Shown here piece by piece: positions 5,089-35,397 of a stretch of 64,000 nucleotides of DNA (positions are counted from its first letter, which is position 1; each line of letters begins with the position of its first letter). Made by a program: the position numbers and the translations under genes. The DNA lies in contig JBKKBZ010000116.1 in NCBI GenBank assembly GCA_046713235.1, positions 2,742 through 66,741 on the forward strand. Direction: 5' to 3'. The notes under the pieces are model-generated. The model worked only from the letters and a program-made list of their open reading frames with translations. It did no database searches and had not been told where the DNA came from. The DNA is from Actinomycetota bacterium. Lineage in GTDB: Bacteria > Actinomycetota > AC-67.

Positions 5089-5649
5089 TCAGACGGGAGA
5101 GGACGCCGGGCTGATCATCAGCTTGCCGTGGAACTCGAGGGGCTCCATCGGGTCGATGACTTCGGAGATTGCGGCGGTCGTCACGATCTTCTGAATTCCC
5201 TTGGAGAAGCGATTGCGGTAGGTGCGAGACGTGCACCCAGCCGAGACTCCGACCGGGTTGTGCGGGGCCGGCGGCATAACAAGCTCGAGGGGACCGACGC
5301 CGTCTTCAGGCGCAAGGCCGGTGAGATACTGGCAGGTCGCCCCGAAGATCAAGCGCCCGAGCGGGTCGAACCACGAGACCGAAACGTACCCTCCTGGGAT
5401 GACCGGCATGGCGACGTGGAAGTTCGCGTGGGACTCGACGAGAGATACGTACCCCGCCCGCGTGAGGGTGAACTGCCCAACGCAATCGCCGTACCAGCCT
5501 CCATCGCCGGTCGGCGTGGTCATCCCGGAGCACTCGCCCGGAACGGCTCCCGTCGCCAGAAGCTCGTGCACGGTGGCCCGGCCCGAACCGGGGACGGCCG
5601 TCCCCAGGGCAAGCGCAAGCATGAGTATGAAAAGTCTCGATCGGCCCAT
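5089..5649 (-). CDS. Secreted hypothetical protein (signal peptide, 4 Cys)
   Basis: N-terminal signal peptide MGRSRLFILMLALALGTAVPGSG. No recognisable domain. Confidence 0.45.
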   Translation of the reverse strand: MGRSRLFILMLALALGTAVPGSGRATVHELLATGAVPGECSGMTTPTGDGGWYGDCVGQFTLTRAGYVSLVESHANFHVAMPVIPGGYVSVSWFDPLGRLIFGATCQYLTGLAPEDGVGPLELVMPPAPHNPVGVSAGCTSRTYRNRFSKGIQKIVTTAAISEVIDPMEPLEFHGKLMISPASSPV

Positions 5650-7252: not shown

Positions 7253-7329
<77 letters not shown>

Positions 7330-7727: not shown

Positions 7728-9164
7728 CTATCCCTTGACGACCGCCAGAGGGCGCAGGCGCGCCACTCTCCTCGATAACTTCGCCCCCTCGCAGGTCTCC
7801 ACCACCGCGGACACATCCTTATACGCGGCCGGCGCCTCCTCCGCCAGCAGGCCCCATTGTGTCGCATTCACCAGCACACCGGCCGCAGCGAGGTCGGCCG
7901 CGAGCTGTCGGCCGCTGACCTGCTTCTTGGCTTGCGTGCGGCTCATCATTCGGCCGGCGCCGTGGCAGGTGGAGGAAAACGCCCGAGCGCCCTCGGCGAC
8001 ACCGGCCAGCACGTAAGAGGCCGTGCCCATCGAGCCCGGGATGAGCACCGGCTGTCCGGCCTCACGAAACGCATCTGCCAGCTCCGGGTGGCCGGGGCCG
8101 AACGCCCGCGTGGCGCCCTTGCGGTGAACGCAGAGAAGCCGCTCGCGCCCATCCACGTCGTGCCGTTCCAGCTTGGCAAGGTTATGCGAGACGTCGTACA
8201 CGAGCCGAAGGCCGAGATCCTCGGCACTCCGGCCGAAAACGGTCTCGAAGCACCGGCGAACCTCGTGTGCCAGAAGGTGCCTGTTCGCCCGGGCGAAATT
8301 CGCCGCCGCGGACATCGCCGACAGATACCGCTCACCTTCCGGCGTTCCCACCGGGGCACACGCGAGCTGCCGATCCGGGACGGTGATCTTGTATGCGGCC
8401 ATCGCCCGGTCGAACTTACGGACCTCGTCGGTGCAGACTTGGTGGCCGAGTCCTCGGGATCCGCAGTGCATCATCACCGTGATCGTCCCGGGCTCGAGGT
8501 CGAAGGCCGCAGCGGCGCGCTCGTCGAAGATTTCCTCGATCGCCTGGATCTCGAGGAAATGATTGCCGGCACCGAGCGATCCGAGCTGCGTCGCGCCGCG
8601 CTCGCGTGCCCGATCGCTTACCGCGTCGGGATCCGCTTCGAGGCGGCCCCCGTCCTCGCACCGCTCCACGTCCGAGGGCCAGCCGACACCGCGCTCGAGC
8701 AGCGCAACCACTCCGTCGGTGAGCACGTCCCGCATCTGGGCACCGTCGAGCTTCATGAGACCGTCGCGGCCCGTCCCCCGGGGTATGCGGCGCGCCAGCT
8801 CGTCGATCAGACGCTGCATCGCCGGCGCTGCTTCGGCGAGCAAGAGGTCGCTTCGCAACAGTCGCACACCGCAACAGATGTCGAATCCGACGCCCCCCGG
8901 TGTGACGACGCCGCCATTCTCGACGTCGGTCGCCGCAACCCCGCCGACGGGGAAGCCATAGCCCCAATGCACGTCGGGCATCGCGAACGAAGCGCGAACG
9001 ATGCCGGGAAGCATCGCCACGTTGGCCACCTGATCGAGGGCTCGATCCTCTTTCGCCTTTACCAATAACCCCTCGCTGGCAAAGACGTGGCCCGGCACGA
9101 CCATACCCGCCCGGGCGCCCACCGGGATCTGCCATTCGTACGGTCCGAGGCGGAGCAGGTCCAT
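7728..9164 (-). CDS. rtcB: RNA-splicing ligase RtcB
   Basis: Motifs DVHWGYGFPVGG, NHFLEIQ and C-terminal STCHGAGRMMSR. Start taken at the second Met (9164); an upstream ATG at 9203 would overlap archease by 31 nt. Confidence 0.85.
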   Translation of the reverse strand: MDLLRLGPYEWQIPVGARAGMVVPGHVFASEGLLVKAKEDRALDQVANVAMLPGIVRASFAMPDVHWGYGFPVGGVAATDVENGGVVTPGGVGFDICCGVRLLRSDLLLAEAAPAMQRLIDELARRIPRGTGRDGLMKLDGAQMRDVLTDGVVALLERGVGWPSDVERCEDGGRLEADPDAVSDRARERGATQLGSLGAGNHFLEIQAIEEIFDERAAAAFDLEPGTITVMMHCGSRGLGHQVCTDEVRKFDRAMAAYKITVPDRQLACAPVGTPEGERYLSAMSAAANFARANRHLLAHEVRRCFETVFGRSAEDLGLRLVYDVSHNLAKLERHDVDGRERLLCVHRKGATRAFGPGHPELADAFREAGQPVLIPGSMGTASYVLAGVAEGARAFSSTCHGAGRMMSRTQAKKQVSGRQLAADLAAAGVLVNATQWGLLAEEAPAAYKDVSAVVETCEGAKLSRRVARLRPLAVVKG

Positions 9165-9172
9165 CGGGGCCT

Positions 9173-9577
9173 CTACACGTCGACGTAGACCCGAGCCATC
9201 CATTCGGACCTAGTCTTGGACACGGTCAAGCCGTGATAAGTGACCGCCTTGATCATGGGGCCGGCCGGCTCGGAGTCGATAACCACATAGACGTCCCCCT
9301 CCGCACGAGTCGGCGACACCTGCCGGAGGTCGGCGCCTACCACAAGCTCGCCTCGGGTCTCGAAGCGGTACAGGCACTCCTCCAGGAACTGGACGAGGGT
9401 GTCCTCAAGGTCGGACCCCTCGACCAGGATCGCCCGGGCGTCGTCGGAATCGTCGGGCTCGTCGTCGAGGATGATCGCCGCAAGGGCGCGAGCCGCGTCG
9501 GCGAACAGGACGGGAAGCTCGGGCGCACGCACCTCGATTCCCACGTCCGCCGTGTGGGGGATGATCTCGTACGGCAT
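9173..9577 (-). CDS. Archease (RtcB activator)
   Basis: MPYEIIPHTADVGIEV... N-terminal archease signature, 134 aa, immediately upstream of rtcB. Confidence 0.75.
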   Translation of the reverse strand: MPYEIIPHTADVGIEVRAPELPVLFADAARALAAIILDDEPDDSDDARAILVEGSDLEDTLVQFLEECLYRFETRGELVVGADLRQVSPTRAEGDVYVVIDSEPAGPMIKAVTYHGLTVSKTRSEWMARVYVDV

Positions 9578-25448: not shown

Positions 25449-26540
25449 CTAGGCAGGGACGGCGGACGAAGCGAATCGCCCGACGGCCTCCGCCAGCGCG
25501 CCGGCAAGCATGCGGCGGAACCTATCGTCGGCGAGTAGCGCCTCATCGGCCGGGCTCGTCAGGTAAGCGGGCTCGAGGTGAACCGCCGGCATGCGAGTCT
25601 CTCGCAAAATCGGCCACGTCTTGGCGTGCGTCCGGCCGTCGGTGAGGCCGAGCCCACACACGGCCGATTGGCAGAGATCGGCGAGTCTGGCTCCTACCTG
25701 AGACTCGAATCGCTCGTGTCCGTAGTAGAAGGTTGCCGATCCGCTCGCCGCCGAATCGGTGTGTGCCGCGGTGTGGATCGAAAGAAAGATGTCGGCGGAA
25801 AGGCGATTGGCAAGATGTGCCCGTTCCCGGTCGGTTGGGTTCGCCATGTCGTCACGCGTCAGGAACACCGATGCCCCGGAAACCGCGAGGCGTTCCTCGA
25901 GATGCCGGGCGACGGCATACACGCAGTCGGCTTCTGCCAGGCCGTCCGGACCCACATCTCCGCGGTCGGGACCGCCATGTCCCGGGTCGATCACTACGAC
26001 CAGCCCGGGCGTGCCGGCAAGACGGCGAAAGGACTCGCGCTCACGAATCGGCCCCACCTGAGGAACGGTTGGGTGAGCGAGATGGGGAAGGCCGGCCAGC
26101 GCGCGAACCGTCGATTCCCCGACGATCGCGTCGGGGGGGAGTCCGTAATTCTCCTGAAACTCGCGCAACGCAAGCGCGGTTCGGGGCCCGAGAATGCCGT
26201 CGACCCTGCCGGCGTCGAATCCGAGCGCGCTCAACCGCTCCTGAAGCTCCCGCACGTCGTCGCCGCGGATCTGTGGGGAACGCAGATACAGCGTGCGATC
26301 GCCCAGCCGCCAGGAGGCCTCCACTAGCTCGCGCCAGGTATCGGGACCGACGAGACCGTCTACGAGAAGACCTCGCGCTTGCTGGAAAGAGCTGACGGCT
26401 TGAGCCGTTCCGGAACCGAACGCCCGGCTCCCCTCGTCCTCGCCTACCGAATGGCCGAGAGCGATCAGCCGCTGCTGGATGTCGCGGACTGCTCGTCCTC
26501 GGGCTCCCGGTCCGATGACCATGGCGCTATCCTTCCCCAA
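25449..26540 (-). CDS. cwlM: CwlM-like N-acetylmuramoyl-L-alanine amidase with two PG-binding domains
   Basis: Two PG_binding_1-like repeats (LVDGLVGPDTWREL, VDGILGPRTALALREFQ) and an Amidase_3 core (VVIDPGHGG...SIHTAAH). Confidence 0.8.
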   Translation of the reverse strand: MGKDSAMVIGPGARGRAVRDIQQRLIALGHSVGEDEGSRAFGSGTAQAVSSFQQARGLLVDGLVGPDTWRELVEASWRLGDRTLYLRSPQIRGDDVRELQERLSALGFDAGRVDGILGPRTALALREFQENYGLPPDAIVGESTVRALAGLPHLAHPTVPQVGPIRERESFRRLAGTPGLVVVIDPGHGGPDRGDVGPDGLAEADCVYAVARHLEERLAVSGASVFLTRDDMANPTDRERAHLANRLSADIFLSIHTAAHTDSAASGSATFYYGHERFESQVGARLADLCQSAVCGLGLTDGRTHAKTWPILRETRMPAVHLEPAYLTSPADEALLADDRFRRMLAGALAEAVGRFASSAVPA

Positions 26541-26685
26541 TCGTCCCCTCGAAGCGAACTCCTGGAGTGGGCAGATCTCTGCTGTGGGGGTCTCGTCGTT
26601 GAGAGCACCGGCCGGGTTCGAATCCGTTCACCTCCACAACCGCTTCTGGCCTGCGCGTTTGAGAAATGCACCCCACCGGTTCGCG

Positions 26686-26701
26686 AACCGGCGCGCCTCG
26701 A
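26686..26701 (-). terminator. Perfect 16-bp palindrome CCGGTTCGCGAACCGG, probable hicAB terminator hairpin
   Basis: Sits about 34 nt downstream of the hicB stop on the minus strand. The minus-strand sequence after it is GGTGGGGTGCATTTCTC, which is relatively T-rich. Confidence 0.4.
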
Positions 26702-26734
26702 GATCGGTTGCCGCGACTTGTGGGCTGGGCAGGG

Positions 26735-26950
26735 CTACCGAGCGTAGATGGCGGGCCGATAACGGGGGCGCGGAATCGGTCGCCCTTCCTCACGGGCTGC
26801 CGCGAGCCACGCTTCCTTCGCGCGGTTGACTTCCGCGACCGCCTCCTCGGGAGTCTTGCCGAAGGCGGAGCACGCCTCAAGGTCGGGGATGTCGGCGATG
26901 TAGCCGCCGTCCTCCTCGCTGTAGAAAACGTTGATGTGGTAGTCGCTCAC
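26735..26950 (-). CDS. hicB: HicB-family (UPF0150) antitoxin
   Basis: YHINVFYSEEDGGYIADIPDLEACSAFGKTPEEAVAEVNRAKEAWL is the classic HicB-like N-terminal fold signature. Confidence 0.7.
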   Translation of the reverse strand: MSDYHINVFYSEEDGGYIADIPDLEACSAFGKTPEEAVAEVNRAKEAWLAAAREEGRPIPRPRYRPAIYAR

Positions 26951-27279
26951 CGGTCCTCCCTGAGCTTCAAAGCATACCGTTCAACGAGCTTCATGAGCTG
27001 ACGGACCTGGTAGGGCTTCGCCTGACCGCTCACCTCTTGGAGGTTGACGAGCTCCGAGAGGTCCGGATGGCCGTAGATGTGATGACTCCCTGAGACCCGC
27101 TTTCGCTCGAACCCAAAGGCCTCCACGAGCCGGGCAAGATCATCGAACGAGACGTTCTTCACCGATCCTCGGGCTACGCGGCGAAGGAGCTTGCGAGGAT
27201 CCACGAGAACCACCCTATCGGGGACCGCCGTCACAATACCGAGGTCGCCGTTCGTGTGGACCGCGACCGCTGAGTCCAT
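26947..27279 (-). CDS. hicA: HicA/YcfA-family toxin (putative mRNA interferase) with N-terminal extension
   Basis: DLARLVEAFGFERKRVSGSHHIYGHPD matches the HicA core. 4-nt overlap with hicB and toxin-first order. Local GC is clearly lower than its surroundings. Confidence 0.55.
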   Translation of the reverse strand: MDSAVAVHTNGDLGIVTAVPDRVVLVDPRKLLRRVARGSVKNVSFDDLARLVEAFGFERKRVSGSHHIYGHPDLSELVNLQEVSGQAKPYQVRQLMKLVERYALKLREDR

Positions 27280-27484
27280 CTTGGAGAAGGTCGCGCGGGG
27301 TCGCGTGGCCCTCGCACAAACCGCCGGTTAAACATGAGACACCACACTAGGGAAGCCCCGAGTTCAGCCCGCCCTCCCGCGCCGAGGGGAGCGTTGCGGA
27401 CGCCCCGTAGCCCGGCAACGGGCTCAACTCGCGTGGATCGGTCGGGATTGTTGTGGCACTCGACCAACTGGTCGGCCACCTCGG

Positions 27485-27814
27485 TTAGGTGATGAATTCC
27501 TGGAGTTCGCCGAGGATCTGGGCCTTGCCTCGGGCGCCGACCACGCGGCGCTTTTCGACCCCATCCACGAAGAGCAGCATGGAGGGGATCGACATGATCC
27601 CGTAGCGCATCGAGGTTTGGGGGTTTGAGTCCACGTCGAGCTTGACGATGGTCAGGTTCCCCTGCTTTTCCTGGGCGATTTCCTCAAGGACCGGGGCCAC
27701 CATATGGCATGGCCCGCACCAGTCCGCCCAGAAGTCGACGAGGACGGGCGTACCGGCCTTGAGAACCTTCTCCTCGAAATCCGAATCGGTGACTTGGATG
27801 ATTGGGCCGCTCAT
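27485..27814 (-). CDS. trxA: Thioredoxin
   Basis: WCGPC active site. 109 aa. Confidence 0.9.
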   Translation of the reverse strand: MSGPIIQVTDSDFEEKVLKAGTPVLVDFWADWCGPCHMVAPVLEEIAQEKQGNLTIVKLDVDSNPQTSMRYGIMSIPSMLLFVDGVEKRRVVGARGKAQILGELQEFIT

Positions 27815-27902: not shown

Positions 27903-29036
27903 TCAGATCGCTTGCCCGTGCGCCTCGATGCGCCCGAGGTCCAGCTCCACACCGAGCCCCGGCTTGGCCGGAAGAGCTATCGTTCCGTCTGCGTCTACTC
28001 GAAACGGTTCGGCGAGCATCGCGTCGCGCCCTTCGGGGACCCATCCCGGCGGGTCGTAGGGGAACTCTATGAGCGCGCCGTTCGTCGCGGCGAGCACATG
28101 AAGATTCGCGGCGAAACCGAGCCCGTTGGACCAGGCGTGCGGCATGAATCCGATGCCGAACTGCTCGGCCGTACGTGCTAGGGACAGCGCCCCGGCAATG
28201 CCACCGCTGACCGTCGCGTCCGGCTGGATGATGTCGACCGCGCGGCGCTCAATCAGCTCCCGCACCGGCCAGATGTCCCCGGCAAACTCCCCCCCGGCGA
28301 TGGGGGTGGTCGTCTGGTCGCGCAGGCGACGGTAGCCTTCGAAATCGAACTGATCCAGCGGTTCCTCCAGCCAGGCGACCCCGTACTCCTCGTACGCGCG
28401 AGCGGTCGCGAGGGCCCGTTTGAAATCCCACCGCGGTCCCTGTGCGAAGACGTCGACGCGCCATCCCTGGTTGGCGTCGGCGGCGACGCCGAACTCGTCG
28501 CCGACCGCTTCTCGGACGGTGCGCACCTCGTCGACGTCCTCACGCATGGACTCGTGGCGCGGCCGGAGCTTCACGCAGCGAAAGCCGGCCTCCCGGGCGG
28601 CCAGCGCGTCGTCGGCTCGCCGCTTGGCCTCCCGCATCTCCCCGAACGACGCGTACGCCGGGACCCGGTCGCGTGTACCGCCGAGGTAGCGATACAACGG
28701 CAAGCCGGCCGCTTTCGCGGCGAGGTCGTAGAGCGCCGTCTCGATGAACCACACGCGCAGGCCCAGCGCGCGAACGGCGGCCTCGAGGATAGGACGCAGC
28801 TCCGCGGGTCGCGATGGGTCGCGCCCGATGAGGAAGGCGCGCATGAGATTCACCGGACCACGCGGCTCGTCGGCGAACGCCACCCACCCCGCGTAGCCCT
28901 CGAGGCCATCGTCGGTGACCAGGCGATAGACCACGCATGAGTTGTTGGGATTGGCGAGGCCGGGGATCCACGCCGGCGAGAAAGGCGCCGGAAGCGGGAA
29001 ATGGCATATCCATGCGTCGATGCGGTCGATCTTCAT
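27903..29036 (-). CDS. Mandelate racemase/muconate lactonizing enzyme-family (enolase superfamily) protein
   Basis: 377 aa. MR/MLE C-terminal barrel with conserved metal-binding region (ADANQGW, EEPLD, IIQPD). Confidence 0.8.
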   Translation of the reverse strand: MKIDRIDAWICHFPLPAPFSPAWIPGLANPNNSCVVYRLVTDDGLEGYAGWVAFADEPRGPVNLMRAFLIGRDPSRPAELRPILEAAVRALGLRVWFIETALYDLAAKAAGLPLYRYLGGTRDRVPAYASFGEMREAKRRADDALAAREAGFRCVKLRPRHESMREDVDEVRTVREAVGDEFGVAADANQGWRVDVFAQGPRWDFKRALATARAYEEYGVAWLEEPLDQFDFEGYRRLRDQTTTPIAGGEFAGDIWPVRELIERRAVDIIQPDATVSGGIAGALSLARTAEQFGIGFMPHAWSNGLGFAANLHVLAATNGALIEFPYDPPGWVPEGRDAMLAEPFRVDADGTIALPAKPGLGVELDLGRIEAHGQAI

Positions 29037-29402
29037 CGGCGTCCCCCTGGTCGGTCGGCGTGGCTATCCTCGCACAGGGCCCGAACCGTGCGTCAAGCTG
29101 CTGAGGTAGGATGCGCTTTCGTGCCCCGCTATCTTCGTTGGATTGCCGCGGCGACGAGTGCCGTGATGGTGCAGTTCGCGTTCTTCGTAGGCGTCGGCGC
29201 GGTAGCGGTTGGAACCGGGAACAAGGAGCTGTCGGGAGGGATCGGGCTGTTGGTTACGCTCGGCTCGACGCTGGTGCCCGTTCTCGTGGCGCTTGCAGTC
29301 AACGATTGGCTTGCCCGCCGCTACCCGGCCACGGCGCAAGAGTCTTCTGAAACCGGGGCGGCCGGGCGACTCGCGCCGGTCGAGCCGTCAGTGCCCGAGT
29401 GA
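29001..29402 (+). CDS. Possible small membrane protein
   Basis: Two hydrophobic helices (AAATSAVMVQFAFFVGVGAVAVG and LLVTLGSTLVPVLVALAV). Start is uncertain and it overlaps both neighbours. Confidence 0.3.
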   Translation: MAYPCVDAVDLHRRPPGRSAWLSSHRARTVRQAAEVGCAFVPRYLRWIAAATSAVMVQFAFFVGVGAVAVGTGNKELSGGIGLLVTLGSTLVPVLVALAVNDWLARRYPATAQESSETGAAGRLAPVEPSVPE

Positions 29403-30314
29403 CTCGAGGTAGCGCTCGGCGTCGATAGCCGCCTGACACCCCATGCCGGCAGCGGTCACGGCCTGGCGGTAGATGTGATCGACAACGTCGCCGCACGCAA
29501 AGACACCCTCCACGCTGGTCGCCATGCGCGGGTGCGCGACCCGGATGTATCCCTCCGCGTTCATCTCGAGCTGGCCTGCGAAAAGCGTGCTGTTGGGGTC
29601 GTGACCGATGGCCACGAAGAGACCCCCGGTCTCGAGGTCGGTGGTGTCGCCCGTTTTCACGTGCCGGAGCCGCAGCCGGTCGACTTTGCCGTTTCCCCCG
29701 AGGACGTCCTCGACAACGGTGTCCCAGATGAAATCGACCTTGGGGTTGGCAAAGGCGCGCTCCTGCATGATCTTCGATGCGCGTAGCTCGTGGCGCCGGT
29801 GCACTACGGTGACCTTGGTTGCAAACCGGGTTAGGAACACAGCCTCTTCGACGGCCGAGTCTCCCCCGCCGGCGACGACGAGCGGAACACCTCGGAAGAA
29901 GAAGCCGTCGCAGGTGGCGCAGGTCGAAACCCCGCGGCCCAGGTACTCGCGCTCGCCTGGAACACCCAGCATCCGGGCGCGCGCGCCCGTGGAGACGATG
30001 AGCGTTTTCCCTTCGTAGGTCGCGTCGCCCGACTCAACGACGAAGGGACGTGTCCCGAGATCCACCCGAGTGGCGTCGGCGGTGATGAACTTGGCACCAA
30101 ACCGCTCCGCCTGCGCGCGGAACTTTTCCATCAGCTCGGGGCCGAGTATGCCGTCGGGGAAGCCGGGATAGTTCTCTACCTCGGTCGTCAGCATCAGCTG
30201 TCCGAGGGGTGTGGCGCCCTCGATGACCAGCGGGTCGAGCTGCGCGCGGGCCGCGTACAGCGCGGCGGTGAGGCCGGCCGGCCCAGAGCCGACGATTATG
30301 ACGTTCTCGGACAT
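29388..30314 (-). CDS. trxB: Thioredoxin reductase
   Basis: FAD motif IIVGSGPAGLTAA and the redox-active CATCDG. Confidence 0.9.
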   Translation of the reverse strand: MSENVIIVGSGPAGLTAALYAARAQLDPLVIEGATPLGQLMLTTEVENYPGFPDGILGPELMEKFRAQAERFGAKFITADATRVDLGTRPFVVESGDATYEGKTLIVSTGARARMLGVPGEREYLGRGVSTCATCDGFFFRGVPLVVAGGGDSAVEEAVFLTRFATKVTVVHRRHELRASKIMQERAFANPKVDFIWDTVVEDVLGGNGKVDRLRLRHVKTGDTTDLETGGLFVAIGHDPNSTLFAGQLEMNAEGYIRVAHPRMATSVEGVFACGDVVDHIYRQAVTAAGMGCQAAIDAERYLESLGH

Positions 30315-30388: not shown

Positions 30389-31177
30389 CTAGATCGGGCG
30401 TTGCGCCCAGTAGAGAGTGAAGCAATCCGACGGACGAAGGACCCAGACTTCGGCCCTCGTCGGGCTGCCCTTGGGCGCGACGAAGAAGAGCACGTAGGCT
30501 TCGCGACCTTCGAACGTCGCGACCTCGTAGCGCTGGGGATCAAGCGGCGCATCGGCTCCACGGACGACGTCCTCGGCGCATTCGAGCAGCCCGGGTGGAG
30601 CCGTTGTAAAGGCCGTCCCTGTTTCGTATTCACCCGAGGCGGGACTAGGTATTAGCGTGTCCTTCGAGGTGCTTCTTGCGGTTCCCCTCTCGGTGGACCC
30701 GTCCACGGCAACGGTGCCGAACGCGGCCAGCTCGGCCGAGGCTGAAGCCCGGTCGTAGGTGCGTCCGGCGAGCACGGTGACCTGCTGATCCGAGGCTCCG
30801 GAGGTGTTCTCCCGGAGTGCCGAGTTGCCTCCCTGTCGAGAGACGTCGCGCAGGCTGAGCAGTCCGATCGCCAGCAATCCGGCTGCCGCCGCACCGGCGG
30901 CCCATCCCCAGCGGCGGGTCGCTTTGCTGCGCGCGGGGGAGACGACCGCGAGGCGACGTGCCTCGGCGACCCGGTCGGTGATGAAGGCTGCGGAGACCTC
31001 ATCGAGCGCCACCGGCTCGAGGGAACGCAGGTCGCCGACCGTCGCCCGCAGCGCCTCCAGGGTGCGGCGGCACTCCGCGCACTCGGGGAGGTGATCGTCG
31101 ATGCCGGCGCGGTCGGCGGCGTCGAGCTCTCCGTCGAGATAGGCGGAGAGCAGGTCGAGCTGGTCGTGTTTACTCAT
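30389..31177 (-). CDS. Anti-sigma factor, ZAS-type (HxxxCxxC) with TM segment and extracytoplasmic domain
   Basis: Start at MSKHDQLDLLSAYLDGELD with HLPECAECR. The start overlaps the sigma-factor 3' end. Confidence 0.7.
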   Translation of the reverse strand: MSKHDQLDLLSAYLDGELDAADRAGIDDHLPECAECRRTLEALRATVGDLRSLEPVALDEVSAAFITDRVAEARRLAVVSPARSKATRRWGWAAGAAAAGLLAIGLLSLRDVSRQGGNSALRENTSGASDQQVTVLAGRTYDRASASAELAAFGTVAVDGSTERGTARSTSKDTLIPSPASGEYETGTAFTTAPPGLLECAEDVVRGADAPLDPQRYEVATFEGREAYVLFFVAPKGSPTRAEVWVLRPSDCFTLYWAQRPI

Positions 31178-31769
31178 CGGGTCTCGCCACCTTAGAGGGT
31201 TCTTCCTCCCCCTCGGGTTCCAAGTGCCCGAGAATACGTGCCAATTCGAGCCGGGCACGATGGAGGCGGCTCTTTACCGTCCCGATCGGAATTTTCAAGG
31301 CAAAGGCGACTTCGGAGTAGTCCAGGTCCTCGAGGTCGTGAAGAACGACGACTGCCCGGTGATCCGGGCTCAGCGAGGCGACGCCTCGGCGGACGGCTTG
31401 GGCGCGGTGCGCTGCCAGGGCCAGTTCCTCCGGCCCGGGGCCGGCATCGGCCGTCTCGGGAACGTCGTCGAGCGCAGCGTGGTCGCGCCGGCTGCGGCGG
31501 CGACCGAGGTCCACGGCTGCGTTCACGGCAAGCCGGTGAAGCCAGGTGGTCAGTTTCGCCTCGCCGCGGAACGACCCCAGCGAGCGATAGGCCGTCACGA
31601 ACACTTCCTGGGCCACGTCGAGGGCGTCCTCGTGACGCCCGCACACGCGAAGCGCCACCGCGTACACCCGCGTGCGGTGGCGGGAGACGATCTCATCGAA
31701 GGCGGCAGTTTCCCCGGCGAGATGCCGCCGGACCAGCTCGGGGTCGGTCGCGCGGGTGGGGTCGGTCAT
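31170..31769 (-). CDS. ECF sigma-70 family sigma factor (SigM-like position)
   Basis: Region 2 (DALDVAQEVFVTAYRSLGSF) and region 4 (LDYSEVAFALKIPIGTVKSRLHRAR). 199 aa. Confidence 0.85.
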   Translation of the reverse strand: MTDPTRATDPELVRRHLAGETAAFDEIVSRHRTRVYAVALRVCGRHEDALDVAQEVFVTAYRSLGSFRGEAKLTTWLHRLAVNAAVDLGRRRSRRDHAALDDVPETADAGPGPEELALAAHRAQAVRRGVASLSPDHRAVVVLHDLEDLDYSEVAFALKIPIGTVKSRLHRARLELARILGHLEPEGEEEPSKVARPDE

Positions 31770-31776
31770 CGACGCC

Positions 31777-32943
31777 TCAGCCGCCGTCGTTCACGTATAC
31801 CCGCTCGATGTGGGAGCCCACGAGCAGGCGGCGGGCCTCGATGCGCACGACGTCTCCCACGGCCACTCCCGGAACGTCGCCGACATCGACGGTTGCTTGC
31901 TGCATCGAGATTCGTCCGACGACGGGCGCCCGTCCGCCGCGTACCGTAACCGCGCGCGGGGACGAGCGACGGCCGGCGACGATCGCCGCGACGCGCAAGC
32001 CGGCTCGCGCCGCTTCCGACCAGGATTCGGTTCGGGCGGCAGGCTCGAGGCCGAATCCGTCGGCGTATCCGACCGGGATGGTGGCAACTCGCGTCGGCCG
32101 CCCGGCGCGCCACTCGCTCCCGTACCCGACACCTTCGCCGGTTGCGACCGTTCGCAGGCTGACGATGCGTGCGAACCAAGAGAACGGATCCTCCAGCGGC
32201 ATCGGTGCGCGAACGTGCGGAGGATCGAGACCGTATAGGAGCGTTCCCACGCGCACCATGTCGTAGCGCGCCTCCGGGTGGGCAATCGTCGCCGCGGAGT
32301 TTGCCGCATGGAGGATGGTCCGGGCGGCTCTCTTTCCCAGCGCCGTCCGGACGCGCTCGAAGGCCGCGATCTGAGGAGAGGCCGACGCGGTCCCGGCGGC
32401 CGCGAAGTGGGTCCAGATACCTTCGAGCGAAATGTGGTCATCCCCGGCCGCCCGGCCGGCAACGACCACCGCGTCGTTGGGCGAAACCCCCAGGCGTCCC
32501 ATTCCGGTGTTGACCTTCATGTGGACATGCGCGCGCTTCCCGCCGGCCTCGGCGGCAGCCGAGATGGGACCGAGATCTTCGGATGAGGCGACGCATAGGG
32601 TGAGGTCGAGGGCGATCGCGTCGCGGATCAGGTCTGCCGGAATCGGAGTGAGCAGCAGGACGGGCGTGGAGATCCCCGCTGTGCGGAGCTCGCGTGCCTC
32701 TTCCCATCGGGTGACCGCGAGCATGCGAGCCCCGGCGTCGGCCAACGTGCGCGCGACGGCAACGAGCCCGTGGCCGTAAGCGTTGGCCTTCACCACGGCG
32801 CACACGGGAACGCCGGCGTGTGCCGCAACGGCCGCAAAGTTGTTGCGTATGGCGTCGAGCGAGATCTCGATCCACGTGGACGCACCCCGGGGGATCCGCC
32901 CGGCATCACCGGGAGATCCAAGGTCAGTCGGCGAGCGAGCCAC
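31777..32943 (-). CDS. alr: Alanine racemase
   Basis: PLP-lysine motif AVVKANAYGHG. 388 aa. Confidence 0.85.
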   Translation of the reverse strand: MARSPTDLGSPGDAGRIPRGASTWIEISLDAIRNNFAAVAAHAGVPVCAVVKANAYGHGLVAVARTLADAGARMLAVTRWEEARELRTAGISTPVLLLTPIPADLIRDAIALDLTLCVASSEDLGPISAAAEAGGKRAHVHMKVNTGMGRLGVSPNDAVVVAGRAAGDDHISLEGIWTHFAAAGTASASPQIAAFERVRTALGKRAARTILHAANSAATIAHPEARYDMVRVGTLLYGLDPPHVRAPMPLEDPFSWFARIVSLRTVATGEGVGYGSEWRAGRPTRVATIPVGYADGFGLEPAARTESWSEAARAGLRVAAIVAGRRSSPRAVTVRGGRAPVVGRISMQQATVDVGDVPGVAVGDVVRIEARRLLVGSHIERVYVNDGG

Positions 32944-34012
32944 CGCTGCCTCGCAGAGCCTTGAGCGCTCTCATTGCCACCGGCGCACCGTATCGCCATC
33001 CTCGGTACATCACCGAACGCAGCGGGAGGTCCAGCTCGCCGACGTACTCCACGTAGCGCGCGCCGAACCCGGCCTTGAACCGATTCAGCCCGGCAAGGTG
33101 CTCTTCGGTCGGCTTGCCGTTACGCATGGGCGACACCCCGCGAAAATCGTAGGTCTGAAAGCCTCGGTCGTGCGCCCAGCGGATCATCGTCCACTGGAGC
33201 AGATGATTCGGCATGACGTTGCGATCCCGGCTCGACGAGGCGCCGTAGGTATACGTCGCGCGAGACCCGAACGTGAGCAGCATCGCCCCGGCGATCGCGC
33301 GACCCTCGTACCGCGCGAGGAACATCGCGAGCCGGCCGGCCGGCGTCAGGACGTCGACCAGGCGCTCGAAGTACTCGCGGCCGCGAATGAGGAAATGGTC
33401 CCTGCGCGCCGTCTCGAGCAGCAGGTCGTAGAAGACCGGAAGTTCGTCTCGTCCGGCCTCGGAAACTTCCACTCCCTTTCGCTCGGCCAGCCGGATGTTG
33501 TACTTCCATTTCTTGTGGAACCCTTCGTGCACGCTGTCGATGCCGGGGGCGAGATCGAGGACCATGACCGCGCGCGGTTGTACGCCACCGAATCGTCCCG
33601 CCCCCGACGGACGAAAACCTGCGGCCGCCAGGGCACCCGCTTCCGCGATGCCCATCGGAATCGGAGGATCACACTTCAAGAGGATTGCCTTTCCCGCTCG
33701 CCGCTCGACCTCGGCAAGTATTGCCCCAAGAGCCTCTGGTTGCCGGTAATCGAGCACCGGGCCACGCGGACAGTACAGAATCGGAGGCGCCCCACGAACC
33801 GGTCTCGTTTCCAGAACCTGAGCCGCTGCGACGATCCCGTGGCCGCCTTGGACGAGGATCCGATGGGGGACCCAGCCGCCGGTGCGCTTGACCTCCCCCC
33901 AGGCGAAGGATTGGAGAACGTCGGCGAAGGGCGAGCGCGCAACGAAGTCGTCGTAGAGATCCCTCTCGTGCTCGCCGGCGATGCGGGGCCGCAAGGCCCC
34001 TGAGTCGATCAA
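32924..34012 (-). CDS. FemAB/FemX-family peptidoglycan bridge-forming aminoacyltransferase-like protein
   Basis: FemAB-like core (FLQSFAWGEVK...KWKYNIRLAERKG...ATYTYGASS). Start set at TTG 34012 overlapping the upstream stop (TTGA). The ORF track extends to 34222 within the neighbouring gene. Confidence 0.65.
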   Translation of the reverse strand: MIDSGALRPRIAGEHERDLYDDFVARSPFADVLQSFAWGEVKRTGGWVPHRILVQGGHGIVAAAQVLETRPVRGAPPILYCPRGPVLDYRQPEALGAILAEVERRAGKAILLKCDPPIPMGIAEAGALAAAGFRPSGAGRFGGVQPRAVMVLDLAPGIDSVHEGFHKKWKYNIRLAERKGVEVSEAGRDELPVFYDLLLETARRDHFLIRGREYFERLVDVLTPAGRLAMFLARYEGRAIAGAMLLTFGSRATYTYGASSSRDRNVMPNHLLQWTMIRWAHDRGFQTYDFRGVSPMRNGKPTEEHLAGLNRFKAGFGARYVEYVGELDLPLRSVMYRGWRYGAPVAMRALKALRGSGGSLAD

Positions 34013-35397
34013 CCTGCCGCCTCGAATGTGATTTCGGCGACGGCGGCCTGGAACGGGAGGTTGCTTCCCGAGCCGGCGTTGGCAAGCTCCGTTATCCACA
34101 GCAGCCAGTAACGACCCTGGTTTTCCCCGGACGGCTTCACCGCGCCGTCGGAGCTGGCCGTAAACGACGCGACGACCCTGTAGTCGGCCGCAGACCCTCC
34201 GGCCGCGCCGGAGACTCGCCATTCACCACGCCAGCCGGCGATGGGGCTGCGCAGACGGATCGTATCGACGCGCACGTTGGCTCCGAGATCGAAGAGCAGG
34301 CCGACGCCGGGCTTGGAGCCGCCGAGGTTTGCCGACGCGTAGCCCACAGTCGTCCATGCGCTGGTGGCGTCACCGTCGAGAACCAGCGCTACCTTTTCGG
34401 GGTGTTCGCTGCCGTTTCCGGGATTCGGGTCGAAGTCCCGGACGGCTGCCACGGATAGCGCCCCCCGGGGCGAAGGGGAAGGGGATGCCGCGCCCTCGCG
34501 TCGCTGGGGAAGGAGCTTCGCAACGGTCAAGCCGGCGACGATCGCCCCGGCCGCGACGCCGAGGAACAACAAGAGCGCGAGCAACCACCGGCCCTCCGTT
34601 CGCAGGTAGCCCGGCTCCCGAGCGGCCGGCGGTGCCTTGGGGGCTGCGAACGGCTCGACTGCGTCGAGAAAGCTCGGCAGGTCCGAGTGCCCACCGAGAG
34701 CGCGTTCGACGGCCGAAGCGAGTTCCGCAGTCACCCCGCGCGATCCTGTCAGGGAGGTGCCCGGTGTGTTGGGCGGGCGGCCGGTGAGCATGTGGACGGT
34801 GAGAGCGGCCAGTGCCCGAAGGTCTGCCTCTGCCGGCTCCTTCGGATCGGGACCTGGGTACCCCTCCGGCTGTACCGGTGGATCGGCCGGCTCTCCTCGC
34901 GCTCCTCCGGCAAGCATCGCAACCTCCACCAGGCCGGGTCCGAGCAGCTTGGCTCGGCCTTCCTCGTCGAATGCCACCCAGGCCGGACCGATGGCGCCGT
35001 GCGTCCGCCCCGCTTGATGAAGGACCCGGAGCGCGGCCCCGACACTGGATGCCACCCGCGCCGCCTCGGCAACCGGGAGCGTGCCGTCGCGCAGCCGCTC
35101 GGCGAGCCGCCCGCCCGTCGGGTGCTCGGTGACCAGGTACGGCGGATCGTCGCCGCAGTCGTAGATCTGCACCAGACGCCGGTCGACGAGCTGGGCGTCC
35201 CGTGCGGCGATGCGCAGAAGCGCCTCGCGGGTCCCGGCATCGCCGGCAACATCGGGACCCAGCATGTGAACGAGCACCGGCCGGTTCAGGACGGTGTCGC
35301 GCGCCTCCCAAACCGGCCCGGCCGGCGCCGGCCACGCCAGACGTTCCACGCGGTAACGCCCCGCGATCACGGTGCCGGTTCGCACGACGTCTTTCAT
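34009..35397 (-). CDS. Pseudokinase-TM-extracellular domain protein (homolog of the C-terminal module of mycobacterial MviN/MurJ)
   Basis: Kinase-like fold with degenerate catalytic residues (VLVHML replaces VAxK; HQAGRTHGAIGPAWVAF replaces HRD-type). Followed by one TM helix (WLLALLLFLGVAAGAIVAGL) and an about 190-aa extracytoplasmic domain. Confidence 0.6.
   Translation of the reverse strand: MKDVVRTGTVIAGRYRVERLAWPAPAGPVWEARDTVLNRPVLVHMLGPDVAGDAGTREALLRIAARDAQLVDRRLVQIYDCGDDPPYLVTEHPTGGRLAERLRDGTLPVAEAARVASSVGAALRVLHQAGRTHGAIGPAWVAFDEEGRAKLLGPGLVEVAMLAGGARGEPADPPVQPEGYPGPDPKEPAEADLRALAALTVHMLTGRPPNTPGTSLTGSRGVTAELASAVERALGGHSDLPSFLDAVEPFAAPKAPPAAREPGYLRTEGRWLLALLLFLGVAAGAIVAGLTVAKLLPQRREGAASPSPSPRGALSVAAVRDFDPNPGNGSEHPEKVALVLDGDATSAWTTVGYASANLGGSKPGVGLLFDLGANVRVDTIRLRSPIAGWRGEWRVSGAAGGSAADYRVVASFTASSDGAVKPSGENQGRYWLLWITELANAGSGSNLPFQAAVAEITFEAAG

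What the first reader, a model, noticed from the sequence alone, without database searches (positions are those of the whole stretch)
26541..27484. Lower-GC HicA-HicB toxin-antitoxin island with tRNA-derived remnant and palindromic terminator, inserted between cwlM and trxC
In mycobacterial synteny cwlM and trxC are adjacent. Here a toxin-first hicAB pair is inserted with a 4-nt overlap, and its local GC is visibly lower than its neighbours. Immediately beyond the insert on the cwlM side lie a perfect 16-bp palindrome (CCGGTTCGCGAACCGG) and a 73-nt element containing an exact tRNA T-loop motif (GGGTTCGAATCC) with a 5/7-bp acceptor-like pairing but broken D/T stems. A tRNA 3' fragment next to a small accessory module is the classic footprint of integrase-mediated insertion at a tRNA att site. 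The HicA homolog carries an unusual about 40-aa N-terminal extension.
Basis: partly seen in the sequence, partly recalled or inferred. Interest (0 to 1): 0.5.

Follow-up and report, generated by a model that had tools for sequence, protein, structure and literature searches.

The report
HicAB cassette flanked by mobile-DNA scars
An intact two-gene toxin-antitoxin module, flanked by a dead tRNA-Ala gene relic and the stump of an IS630-type jumping gene, is wedged between two normally adjacent housekeeping genes; this is an ordinary patch of mobile-DNA debris, not a new system.

Summary
The core observation holds. About 0.93 kb lies between trx (27485-27814) and cwlM (25449-26522), which are adjacent in ten of the fifteen related loci, including the four nearest; the rest show no trx match or are cut at a contig end. 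It carries a toxin-first hicA/hicB pair with a GTGA overlap.

- The HicA "N-terminal extension" is a start-codon artefact. Real HicA is 85 aa, starting at GTG 27204.
- The GC dip is marginal: it sits at the 13th percentile, GC3 is normal, and hicA has the same GC as trx.
- The 16-bp palindrome is one of nine in the window and has no terminator features.

The tRNA idea is half right. ARAGORN and Rfam call nothing, but 26615-26636 is the exact 22-nt 3' end (G52-A73) of tRNA-Ala, mostly UGC, in at least 120 metagenome contigs. Upstream there is a weak tRNA-Ala 5'-half resemblance (p about 0.04).

One feature is new. Positions 27239-27349 are the terminal stump of an IS630-family element: an inverted repeat after CTAG plus the last 29 transposase codons. 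The supposed HicA extension is antisense to it.

No integrase, no intact tRNA-Ala and no second repeat copy were found, and no relative has a tRNA at this site. The relic most likely arrived with the cassette. A relative of the cassette does sit at the end of a tRNA-Leu-bounded islet.

Ordinary; low interest.

The parts
27485..27814 (-). This is the upstream boundary of the insert, and homology to L001 stops at 27484.
   Evidence: Pfam Thioredoxin 2.2e-30. blastn to L001 ends at 27484.
27350..27484 (.). 135-nt spacer of unknown origin between the trx stop and the IS end.
   Evidence: No blastn match in any locus tested (L001-L017, L138-L147, L159-L168), in plasmids or in phages. No Rfam hit.
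27239..27349 (+). Terminal remnant of an IS630-family insertion sequence. It holds the last 29 codons of the transposase (27239-27325, stop at 27329-27331), then the terminal inverted repeat, which read on the minus strand is TAGTGTGGTGTCTC (27349-27336). The repeat abuts a CTAG/TA target.
   Evidence: blastn to ISRjo2 on Rhodococcus pRHL2, E 3e-7, and to R. opacus, E 8e-8, in a 7.3-Gb library. tblastn of ISRjo2 transposase residues 333-360: 72% identity, E 1.5e-6. C-termini of IS630 transposases on 8 Rhodococcus plasmids match. Both ISRjo2 ends read C-TAG-TGGTGTGTCTC.
26947..27204 (-). hicA toxin gene, 85 aa, GTG start. The conserved RBS stretch GATAGGGTG lies at 27219-27211. The catalytic-type SGSHH motif is intact.
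   Evidence: Pfam HicA_toxin 8.2e-9. 992 homologs; most of the best 120 are 85 aa. SGSHH is invariant in the alignment. Aligns to PDB HicA chains 1whz, 4c26 and 6g26. Nucleotide homology to L016 begins at 27223.
26735..26950 (-). hicB antitoxin gene, 71 aa. It has only the HicB/UPF0150 N-terminal domain and no DNA-binding domain. Its start overlaps the hicA stop in GTGA.
   Evidence: Pfam UPF0150 2.8e-7 and HicB_lk_antitox 2.5e-5. At least 90% identical to 15 proteins from other assemblies, some annotated as HicB. Weak PDB matches to TTHA0281 and HicB3.
26676..26691 (.). Perfect 16-bp palindrome CCGGTTCGCGAACCGG, 44 nt after the hicB stop. It is probably part of the cassette's own 3' flank. 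No function is shown.
   Evidence: A collinear weak match in L016 reads GGTTCGCGCACC (77% over 39 nt). One of 9 such palindromes in the window. No terminator call.
26586..26639 (+). Decayed tRNA-Ala (UGC-type) gene relic. Positions 26615-26636 are the exact 3' block G52-A73, and 26637-26639 read CAA in place of CCA. Positions 26586-26613 resemble tRNA-Ala positions 1-31. The anticodon loop through the T-stem 5' strand is missing.
   Evidence: The 22-mer is exact in at least 120 metagenome contigs. ARAGORN tRNA-Ala(TGC) and 5 tRNA-Ala(CGC). Zero matches with up to 3 mismatches in 100 shuffles. The 5' half aligns 24/31 starting at tRNA position 1; 12 of 300 shuffles reach the score. ARAGORN and Rfam do not call it a gene.
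26556..26568 (.). Candidate junction repeat GAA[C/T]TCCTGGAGT. The second copy is at 27494-27506, inside the trx 3' end. Together the two copies bracket the insert. Weak evidence.
   Evidence: the repeat finder family D3. The local alignment score is reached by 15 of 500 shuffles.
25449..26522 (-). cwlM-like amidase gene (two PG_binding_1 domains plus Amidase_3). The real start is ATG 26522. This is the downstream boundary of the insert.
   Evidence: Pfam. The start aligns with L001, MVIRPGARG against MVIGPGARG. blastn to L001 resumes at 26526.

Best explanation
The 0.93 kb between trx and cwlM is a patchwork of mobile-DNA leftovers with one working part.

The working part is a standalone type II toxin-antitoxin cassette. 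HicA (85 aa) is inferred to be a small ribosome-independent RNase of the dsRBD-like HicA family, and it keeps the conserved SGSHH histidine motif. HicB (71 aa) has only the HicB/UPF0150 N-terminal domain. It is inferred to neutralise HicA by direct binding and cannot itself bind DNA. The GTGA overlap implies translational coupling.

The rest are scars. On the trx side lies the last roughly 110 bp of an IS630-family element: its terminal inverted repeat after a CTAG/TA target and 29 C-terminal transposase codons. On the cwlM side lies a decayed tRNA-Ala gene relic whose last 22 nt are intact.

The tRNA relic was not created by integration at this site. It was most likely carried in together with hicAB from an earlier location at the edge of a tRNA-associated island. 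The piece was then patched into the trx-cwlM spacer by illegitimate or IS-associated recombination.

Shown: the identities of the parts, and the insertion relative to relatives. Inferred: toxin activity, neutralisation, and the order and mechanism of the rearrangements.
For: Insertion:
- In L001-L004, L010, L012-L015 and apparently L011, trx is followed directly by cwlM.
- Homology to L001 stops at 27484 and resumes at 26526.

Cassette:
- Pfam hits lie above the gathering scores.
- There are 992 homologs, and most of the best 120 are 85 aa.
- SGSHH is invariant in the alignment.
- HicB is at least 90% identical to proteins in 15 other assemblies.
- Nucleotide homology to seven other cassette contexts covers only 27223-26728. 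Each context differs: TA-rich islands, ABC transporters, an exonuclease, Fic. This is a self-contained two-gene unit.

IS630 stump.

tRNA-Ala relic:
- The exact 22-mer equals G52-A73 of tRNA-Ala in at least 120 contigs.
- No match occurs in shuffles, even with 3 mismatches.
- The 5'-half resemblance starts at tRNA position 1.

Not made in situ:
- No tRNA lies at this site in relatives.
- The window has only tRNA-Ile.
- None of the 17 larger neighbouring ORFs scanned is an integrase.

Precedent for island-edge cargo: a 72%-identical hicAB lies next to the displaced 3' fragment of tRNA-Leu(CAA), inside a 4.6-kb islet bounded by a perfect 55-nt repeat. This matches the Islander definition of an island (PMC4383910).
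Against: - No donor locus with hicAB next to tRNA-Ala was found.
- The flanks 27224-27484 and 26523-26727 match nothing else that was fetched, apart from the IS stump and a weak match to L016.
- The window's own genome could not be searched for its tRNA-Ala genes or for a full IS630 copy.
- In the window the tRNA relic points towards hicAB (convergent). In the tRNA-Leu islet the fragment has the same orientation as hicAB, so the two architectures differ.
- The nearest relative available has only 68% CwlM identity, so the insertion is undated and a multi-step origin in situ cannot be excluded.
- Toxin activity is untested.
- No promoter-like site was found.
Confidence: 0.7

Rival explanations
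1. In-situ tRNA-site integration. An ancestor had a tRNA-Ala gene between trx and cwlM. An integrase-bearing island inserted into it. Later deletions and the IS630 element removed the integrase, most of the island and half of the tRNA, leaving hicAB.
For: - The relic points into the hicAB side, as a target tRNA does at the attL end.
- The 5'-half resemblance suggests that a whole gene was once present.
- Relatives of the cassette do ride tRNA-bounded islets.
Against: - No tRNA lies between trx and cwlM in any relative where the two are adjacent, across two classes.
- There is no integrase remnant, and no second repeat copy in the window.
- The scenario needs many independent deletions within 0.9 kb.
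Confidence: 0.1
2. IS630-derived shell with cargo. The segment from about 26584 to 27349 is an internally rearranged IS630 element. Its two inverted repeats survive and its transposase was replaced by the tRNA fragment plus hicAB. It was moved as a unit by a transposase supplied in trans.
For: - A gapped inverted match to the right end, GTGGGGGTCTC...ACCGGCCGG at 26584-26618, has the orientation expected for a left end.
- In L004 a MITE with the same repeat start lies in the same spacer.
Against: - 32 of 1000 shuffles reach the match score.
- The candidate left end lacks the TA/CTAG target: it reads TGC-TGTGG where TAG-TGTGG is expected.
- The same bases are equally well explained as the tRNA-Ala 5' half.
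- No other copy of such an element exists in the window or in any fetched locus.
Confidence: 0.1
3. The tRNA-like sequence is a chance match and has nothing to do with a tRNA.
For: - ARAGORN and Rfam call nothing.
- Matches to the 11-mer T-loop motif with up to one mismatch are expected about twice per window.
Against: - 22 of 22 bases equal the 3' end of a widespread tRNA-Ala.
- No shuffle gives a match even with 3 mismatches.
- The block ends exactly at the discriminator base and is followed by CAA-CCG, where many of these genes have CCA-CCG.
Confidence: 0.03
4. The relic is functional. It might be an alanine-accepting minihelix (G3:U70 is retained). Or, read on the minus strand within a hicAB-cwlM transcript, it might act as a 22-nt antisense to tRNA-Ala.
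For: - The acceptor-like pairing is 6 of 7, with G3:U70 (read directly from the sequence).
- All genes from trxB to cwlM lie on the same strand.
Against: - The T-stem is reduced to 2 pairs and CCA is mutated to CAA.
- 853 of 2000 shuffles reach the same acceptor pairing.
- There is no excess folding stability.
- The element is absent from every relative, so nothing shows conservation.
Confidence: 0.02

Closest known systems
HicAB type II toxin-antitoxin systems (E. coli HicAB, Burkholderia pseudomallei HicAB PDB 4C26, Yersinia pestis HicA3-HicB3 PDB 4P78, Thermus TTHA1913 PDB 1WHZ / TTHA0281 PDB 2DSY)
   Same: - The toxin gene comes first and overlaps the antitoxin gene.
- HicA matches the Pfam domain and has the conserved G-S-H-H histidine motif.
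- HicB has the UPF0150/HicB N-terminal domain.
   Different: - HicB is only 71 aa and lacks the RHH or HTH DNA-binding domain of the characterised HicBs. Autoregulation by HicB alone is therefore not expected.
- HicA is 85 aa, with an N-terminal segment of about 20 aa that is conserved across this mostly actinobacterial subfamily.
- Sequence similarity to the solved structures is weak (E 0.02-0.4).
Genomic islands integrated in tRNA genes (Islander definition, PMC4383910)
   Same: A fragment identical to the 3' end of a tRNA gene lies next to a small accessory module.
   Different: - No regenerated intact tRNA gene.
- No second repeat copy.
- No integrase found.
- The site has no tRNA gene in relatives.
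- The whole insert is under 1 kb.
IS630 / Tc1-mariner family insertion sequences (ISRjo2 of Rhodococcus jostii RHA1)
   Same: - The terminal inverted repeat begins TAGTG...GTCTC directly after a CTAG/TA target.
- The transposase C-terminus reads WTATAESIL.KVARGRVAL.
   Different: Only about 110 bp survive. The rest of the transposase gene and a convincing left end are missing.
tRNA-Leu(CAA)-bounded 4.6-kb islet carrying a related hicAB (L170-L172, ENA metagenome contigs)
   Same: Same hicAB subfamily (72% nucleotide identity), lying within about 300 nt of a displaced tRNA 3' fragment.
   Different: - A different tRNA, Leu rather than Ala.
- The fragment has the same orientation as hicAB.
- An intact partner tRNA is present, with a perfect 55-nt repeat.
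- There is no IS stump.

Membership tests
HicA toxin family (PF07927) | Match to the family profile above the curated threshold | tested here: met
   35.9 bits against a cut-off of 27. 992 homologs at E<=1e-5, and all 120 listed carry PF07927.
HicA toxin family (PF07927) | Conserved catalytic-type histidine in the G-S-H motif | tested here: met
   S-G-S-H-H is invariant in the alignment. It aligns with GSAHH of the 4C26 chain and GGH of 1WHZ. That this histidine is catalytic rests on the published HicA literature and is my own knowledge.
HicA toxin family (PF07927) | RNase activity that arrests growth | not testable with these tools
   Needs expression and cleavage assays.
HicB antitoxin family (UPF0150 / HicB N-terminal domain) | Match to the family profile above the curated threshold | tested here: met
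   PF21748 scores 30.8 against 27.3. PF15919 scores 24.8 against 27, just below. Cluster mates are annotated as HicB.
HicB antitoxin family (UPF0150 / HicB N-terminal domain) | C-terminal DNA-binding domain (RHH or HTH) for autoregulation, as in the characterised HicBs | tested here: not met
   The protein is 71 aa, and the Pfam match covers residues 6-62. No further domain is found. Short HicBs of 70-72 aa are the rule in this subfamily.
Type II toxin-antitoxin operon | Two small adjacent co-oriented genes, overlapping or closely spaced, conserved as a pair | tested here: met
   The GTGA overlap is at 26947-26950. The same pair, 85 aa plus 70-72 aa, occurs in every context examined.
tRNA-integrated genomic island (Islander criteria) | A displaced fragment identical to part of a tRNA gene | tested here: met
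   A 22-nt exact tRNA-Ala 3' end lies at 26615-26636.
tRNA-integrated genomic island (Islander criteria) | An intact tRNA gene of the same kind at the other end, in direct orientation | tested here: not met
   tRNA-Ile is the only tRNA in the 64-kb window. The 22-mer has no second copy, even with 3 mismatches. The rest of the genome was not available.
tRNA-integrated genomic island (Islander criteria) | An integrase gene within the island | tested here: not met
   The insert holds only hicA, hicB and an IS630 stump. The 17 larger ORFs scanned between about 6 and 34 kb are all housekeeping-type genes.
tRNA-integrated genomic island (Islander criteria) | The uninterrupted site in relatives is a tRNA gene | tested here: not met
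   ARAGORN finds no tRNA between trx and cwlM in L001-L015.
IS630 family insertion sequence | DDE transposase of the IS630 type | tested here: inconclusive
   Only the last 29 residues remain. They match ISRjo2 at 72% identity, E 1.5e-6, and 8 annotated IS630 transposases. The catalytic domain is absent.
IS630 family insertion sequence | Terminal inverted repeats flanked by a duplicated TA | tested here: inconclusive
   The right end is present after CTAG. The candidate left end is weak, at 32 of 1000 shuffles, and lacks TA.
Functional tRNA gene | Cloverleaf recognised by ARAGORN or the Rfam tRNA model | tested here: not met
   No call at default thresholds or at 85% or more of them. At 80% the call sits among obvious noise. 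No Rfam tRNA or tmRNA hit at E<=10.

The most novel reading that the evidence does not exclude
The minus-strand transcript running from hicAB into the essential cell-wall regulator gene cwlM would carry a perfect 22-nt complement to the 3' end of tRNA-Ala(UGC). It could pair with that tRNA, or be cut by HicA. That would couple alanine-tRNA status or toxin activity to cwlM expression, in a neighbourhood that also holds alanine racemase and a FemAB-type tRNA-dependent transferase. Nothing observed supports this beyond the sequence complementarity and gene order, and the element is not conserved in any relative.
Probability: 0.02. Interest if true: 0.6.

Novelty: new member of a known kind. Interest (0 to 1): 0.15.

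Why it matters
It matters little biologically.
- It is one more example of a toxin-antitoxin cassette lodging in a conserved operon near the replication origin, with the debris that records how such cassettes travel.
- It corrects the public gene model: HicA is 85 aa, not 110 aa.
- A 22-nt tRNA relic missed by tRNA finders could still be assigned to its parent (tRNA-Ala) by an exact-match scan.
- It gives a concrete case of this hicAB subfamily riding a tRNA-Leu-bounded islet that has no recognisable integrase.

Tried and rejected
- Exact look-ups of the window's Trx, HicB and 110-aa HicA in the contig index found nothing, so the source contig and the rest of its genome could not be reached.
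- Rfam at E<=10 on 26300-27700 gave only noise, snoR66 and a miRNA.
- ARAGORN with lowered thresholds gave no call at 85% or more. At 80% it called a 'tRNA-Glu' at 26551-26635 alongside equally poor calls elsewhere, so I discarded it.
- Folding of the 194-nt spacer on either strand, and of the 90 nt after hicB in five cassettes, showed no excess stability and no shared hairpin.
- The promoter and terminator scan found nothing relevant.
- The flanks are not repeated elsewhere in the window.
- The 120 tRNA-Ala loci carry no hicAB.
- Phage records have no match to the insert.
- Viral contigs hold no copy of the 22-mer and only distant HicA relatives, at most 42% identical over a full-length match.
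- A Pfam scan of flank ORFs failed on a stop codon and was not repeated.
- The 254-aa and 711-aa ORFs of the tRNA-Leu islet have no recorded Pfam hit and no PHROG or NCBIfam match, so no integrase could be assigned there.
- tmRNA origin of the relic was considered and dropped. All 114 ARAGORN-identified carriers of the 22-mer are tRNA-Ala.
Full report
**Layout**

All the relevant genes lie on the minus strand:
- trxB, 29388-30314
- an enolase-superfamily (MR_MLE) gene, 27903-29036
- thioredoxin (trx), 27485-27814
- the region in question
- a cwlM-like amidase, 25449-26522

The window is the replication-origin neighbourhood of an uncultured, deep-branching Actinomycetota genome. It holds gyrA, dnaA, yidC, rsmG and parA, an anti-sigma factor, alanine racemase and FemAB. 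The nearest species-representative genome has only 68% CwlM identity.

**Is hicAB really an insertion?**

Yes. In L001-L004, L010 and L012-L015, and apparently in the truncated L011, trx is followed directly by cwlM, with gaps of about 50-140 nt. L014 has a gap of about 2.4 kb, and L005-L009 show no trx match or are cut at a contig end. L001 also has the same trxB - MR_MLE - trx - cwlM order as the window.

Homology between the window and L001 stops at 27484, the base after the trx stop. It resumes at 26526, just before the cwlM ATG at 26522. Allowing for some native spacer next to cwlM, about 0.91-0.94 kb is extra.

**The cassette**

- HicA and HicB both pass Pfam gathering scores.
- The hicA stop and the hicB start overlap in GTGA, and L016 has the same overlap.
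- The 110-aa HicA ORF, which is also the public gene model (P0001), is too long. Most of the best 120 of 992 homologs are 85 aa.
- All 11 aligned homologs begin at residue 26 of the 110-aa ORF.
- Nucleotide homology to the closest cassette (L016, 83% identity) begins at 27223. That covers a shared GATAGGGTG ribosome-binding stretch, and in L016 the start is an ATG at the position of the window's GTG 27204.
- SGSHH, the histidine motif of HicA toxins, is invariant. It aligns to the solved HicA chains.
- HicB is at least 90% identical to 15 proteins from other assemblies. It is only 71 aa, so it has the toxin-binding domain but no DNA-binding domain.

I examined seven other genomic contexts of this subfamily. 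In each, homology to the window is confined to 27223-26728, and the neighbours are different every time:
- TA-rich islands with PIN/Phd, ParE, FitA, HEPN/MNT and MazE genes
- ABC transporters
- a 5'-3' exonuclease
- Fic

. This is a self-contained two-gene unit that moves between unrelated places.

**Composition**

The cassette GC is 0.630 against a window mean of 0.662, which puts it at the 13th percentile of 470-nt windows.

| Gene | GC | Note |
|---|---|---|
| hicB | 0.662 | equal to the window mean |
| hicA | 0.601 | low because of codon position 2 (0.36) |
| trx | 0.603 | a core gene, for comparison |

GC3 is 0.73-0.82 for the pair, within the host's 0.784 +/- 0.034. Related cassettes are likewise 1.5-8 points below their own surroundings. 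The dip therefore reflects amino-acid composition and is not evidence of recent foreign origin.

**The palindrome**

It is present at 26676-26691, but the window has nine perfect 16-nt palindromes against about three expected. It has no T-tract and no terminator call, and it is not a dominant hairpin in context.

L016 has a collinear, imperfect version, GGTTCGCGCACC. The palindrome probably belongs to the cassette's own 3' flank. No function can be assigned.

**The tRNA-like element**

Gene finders are negative. ARAGORN finds only tRNA-Ile(GAU) at 7253-7329 and calls nothing here at 85% or more of its thresholds. Rfam gives no tRNA or tmRNA hit at E<=10.

In the 114 cases that ARAGORN recognises, it is the 3' end (G52 to discriminator A73) of tRNA-Ala: 109 UGC and 5 CGC. 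No shuffle of the window yields a match, even with three mismatches. It is followed by CAA-CCG, where many of those genes have CCA-CCG.

Just upstream, 26586-26613 aligns with tRNA-Ala positions 1-31 at 24 of 31 columns. The alignment starts at position 1 and includes the G3:U70 pair, but 12 of 300 shuffles do as well.

The best reading is a tRNA-Ala gene relic. It lacks the anticodon loop through the T-stem 5' strand, and its D-arm is eroded.

Positions 27248-27353 match the end of IS630-family elements on Rhodococcus plasmids (E 3e-7 and 8e-8 in 7.3 Gb).
- On the plus strand, 27239-27325 encodes PRSPFVWTATAESILEKVARGRVALAQTA, with the stop at 27329-27331. This is 72% identical to the last 28 residues of the ISRjo2 transposase (E 1.5e-6).
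- It also matches eight annotated IS630 transposases.
- Read on the minus strand, the sequence CCC-TAG-TGTGGTGTCTC mirrors both ISRjo2 ends, C-TAG-TGGTGTGTCTC, with the family's CTAG/TA target.

The supposed HicA N-terminal extension (27205-27279) is therefore the antisense of a transposase remnant. The 135 nt between this stump and trx match nothing.

**How did it get there?**

The criteria for a tRNA-integrated island are an intact tRNA at one end, a displaced fragment at the other, and an integrase inside (PMC4383910). They fail here on several counts:
- There is no intact tRNA-Ala and no second repeat in the window.
- None of the 17 larger ORFs scanned between about 6 and 34 kb is an integrase.
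- No relative has a tRNA gene at this site.

I therefore infer that the relic travelled with the cassette from an earlier island-edge location.

That lifestyle is documented for a relative. In L170-L172, an intact tRNA-Leu(CAA) and a perfect 55-nt repeat of its 3' part bracket a 4.6-kb islet. The repeat runs from the anticodon loop to the 3' end. The last genes of the islet are a hicAB pair 72% identical to this one. In L161/L169 the fragment carries a different, compensated T-stem and a different outer flank, as expected for the host-derived side.

Two weak junction features remain unresolved:
- A 13-nt direct repeat (12 of 13 identical) brackets the insert, with one copy inside the trx 3' end. 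About 3% of shuffles reach the score.
- A gapped inverted match to the IS end lies at 26584-26618, again at about 3% of shuffles. It overlaps the tRNA 5'-half resemblance.

Neither is strong enough to choose among illegitimate recombination, an IS630-derived shell, or stepwise decay in place.

**Verdict**

This is an intact and probably functional HicAB module in a patch of mobile-DNA scars, and it is ordinary. It is wrong about in-situ integrase action, the GC evidence, the terminator and the HicA extension.

Noticed in passing
L170:6115-10810 (also L171, L172; variants L161/L169, L162): A 4.6-kb islet is bounded by an intact tRNA-Leu(CAA) and a perfect 55-nt direct repeat of its 3' part. It holds a 254-aa ORF, a 711-aa ORF and a hicAB pair. 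Neither ORF has a recorded Pfam hit or a PHROG or NCBIfam match, and there is no recognisable integrase. In L161/L169 the displaced fragment has a compensated different T-stem and a different outer flank.
   Followed up: partly
L004:4879-4982: A 104-nt MITE-like element has 20-nt terminal inverted repeats, CTAGTGTGGTGCG[C/T]CCGAAG. It is inserted at the TA of the trx stop codon, in the same trx-cwlM spacer as the window's insert, and its repeat starts like that of the window's IS630 stump.
   Followed up: partly
window 7253-7329 and 7728-9209: tRNA-Ile(GAU) stands alone, with no tRNA-Ala after it, unlike the ileT-alaT pair downstream of gyrA in mycobacteria (from my own knowledge). An RtcB RNA ligase gene lies between it and gyrA.
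   Followed up: partly
window 27903-29036: A mandelate racemase / enolase-superfamily gene sits between trxB and trx in the window and in L001. It lies near the pair in L002 and L003. This lineage's trxB-trx pair is therefore itself interrupted relative to L004 and most of the Acidimicrobiia-type loci.
   Followed up: no
window 30389-34222: Upstream of trxB lie an anti-sigma factor (zf-HC2), alanine racemase and a FemAB-family aminoacyl-tRNA-dependent transferase, all on the same strand as the trx-cwlM genes.
   Followed up: no
window, whole: The window holds nine perfect 16-nt palindromes, against about 3 expected from a first-order Markov model. Examples are GGGGACGGCCGTCCCC at 5590 and CGGGCGCGCGCGCCCG at 29974.
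   Followed up: no
window 26523-26540: The mechanical cwlM ORF starts at TTG 26540. Alignment with L001 shows that the real start is ATG 26522.
   Followed up: yes
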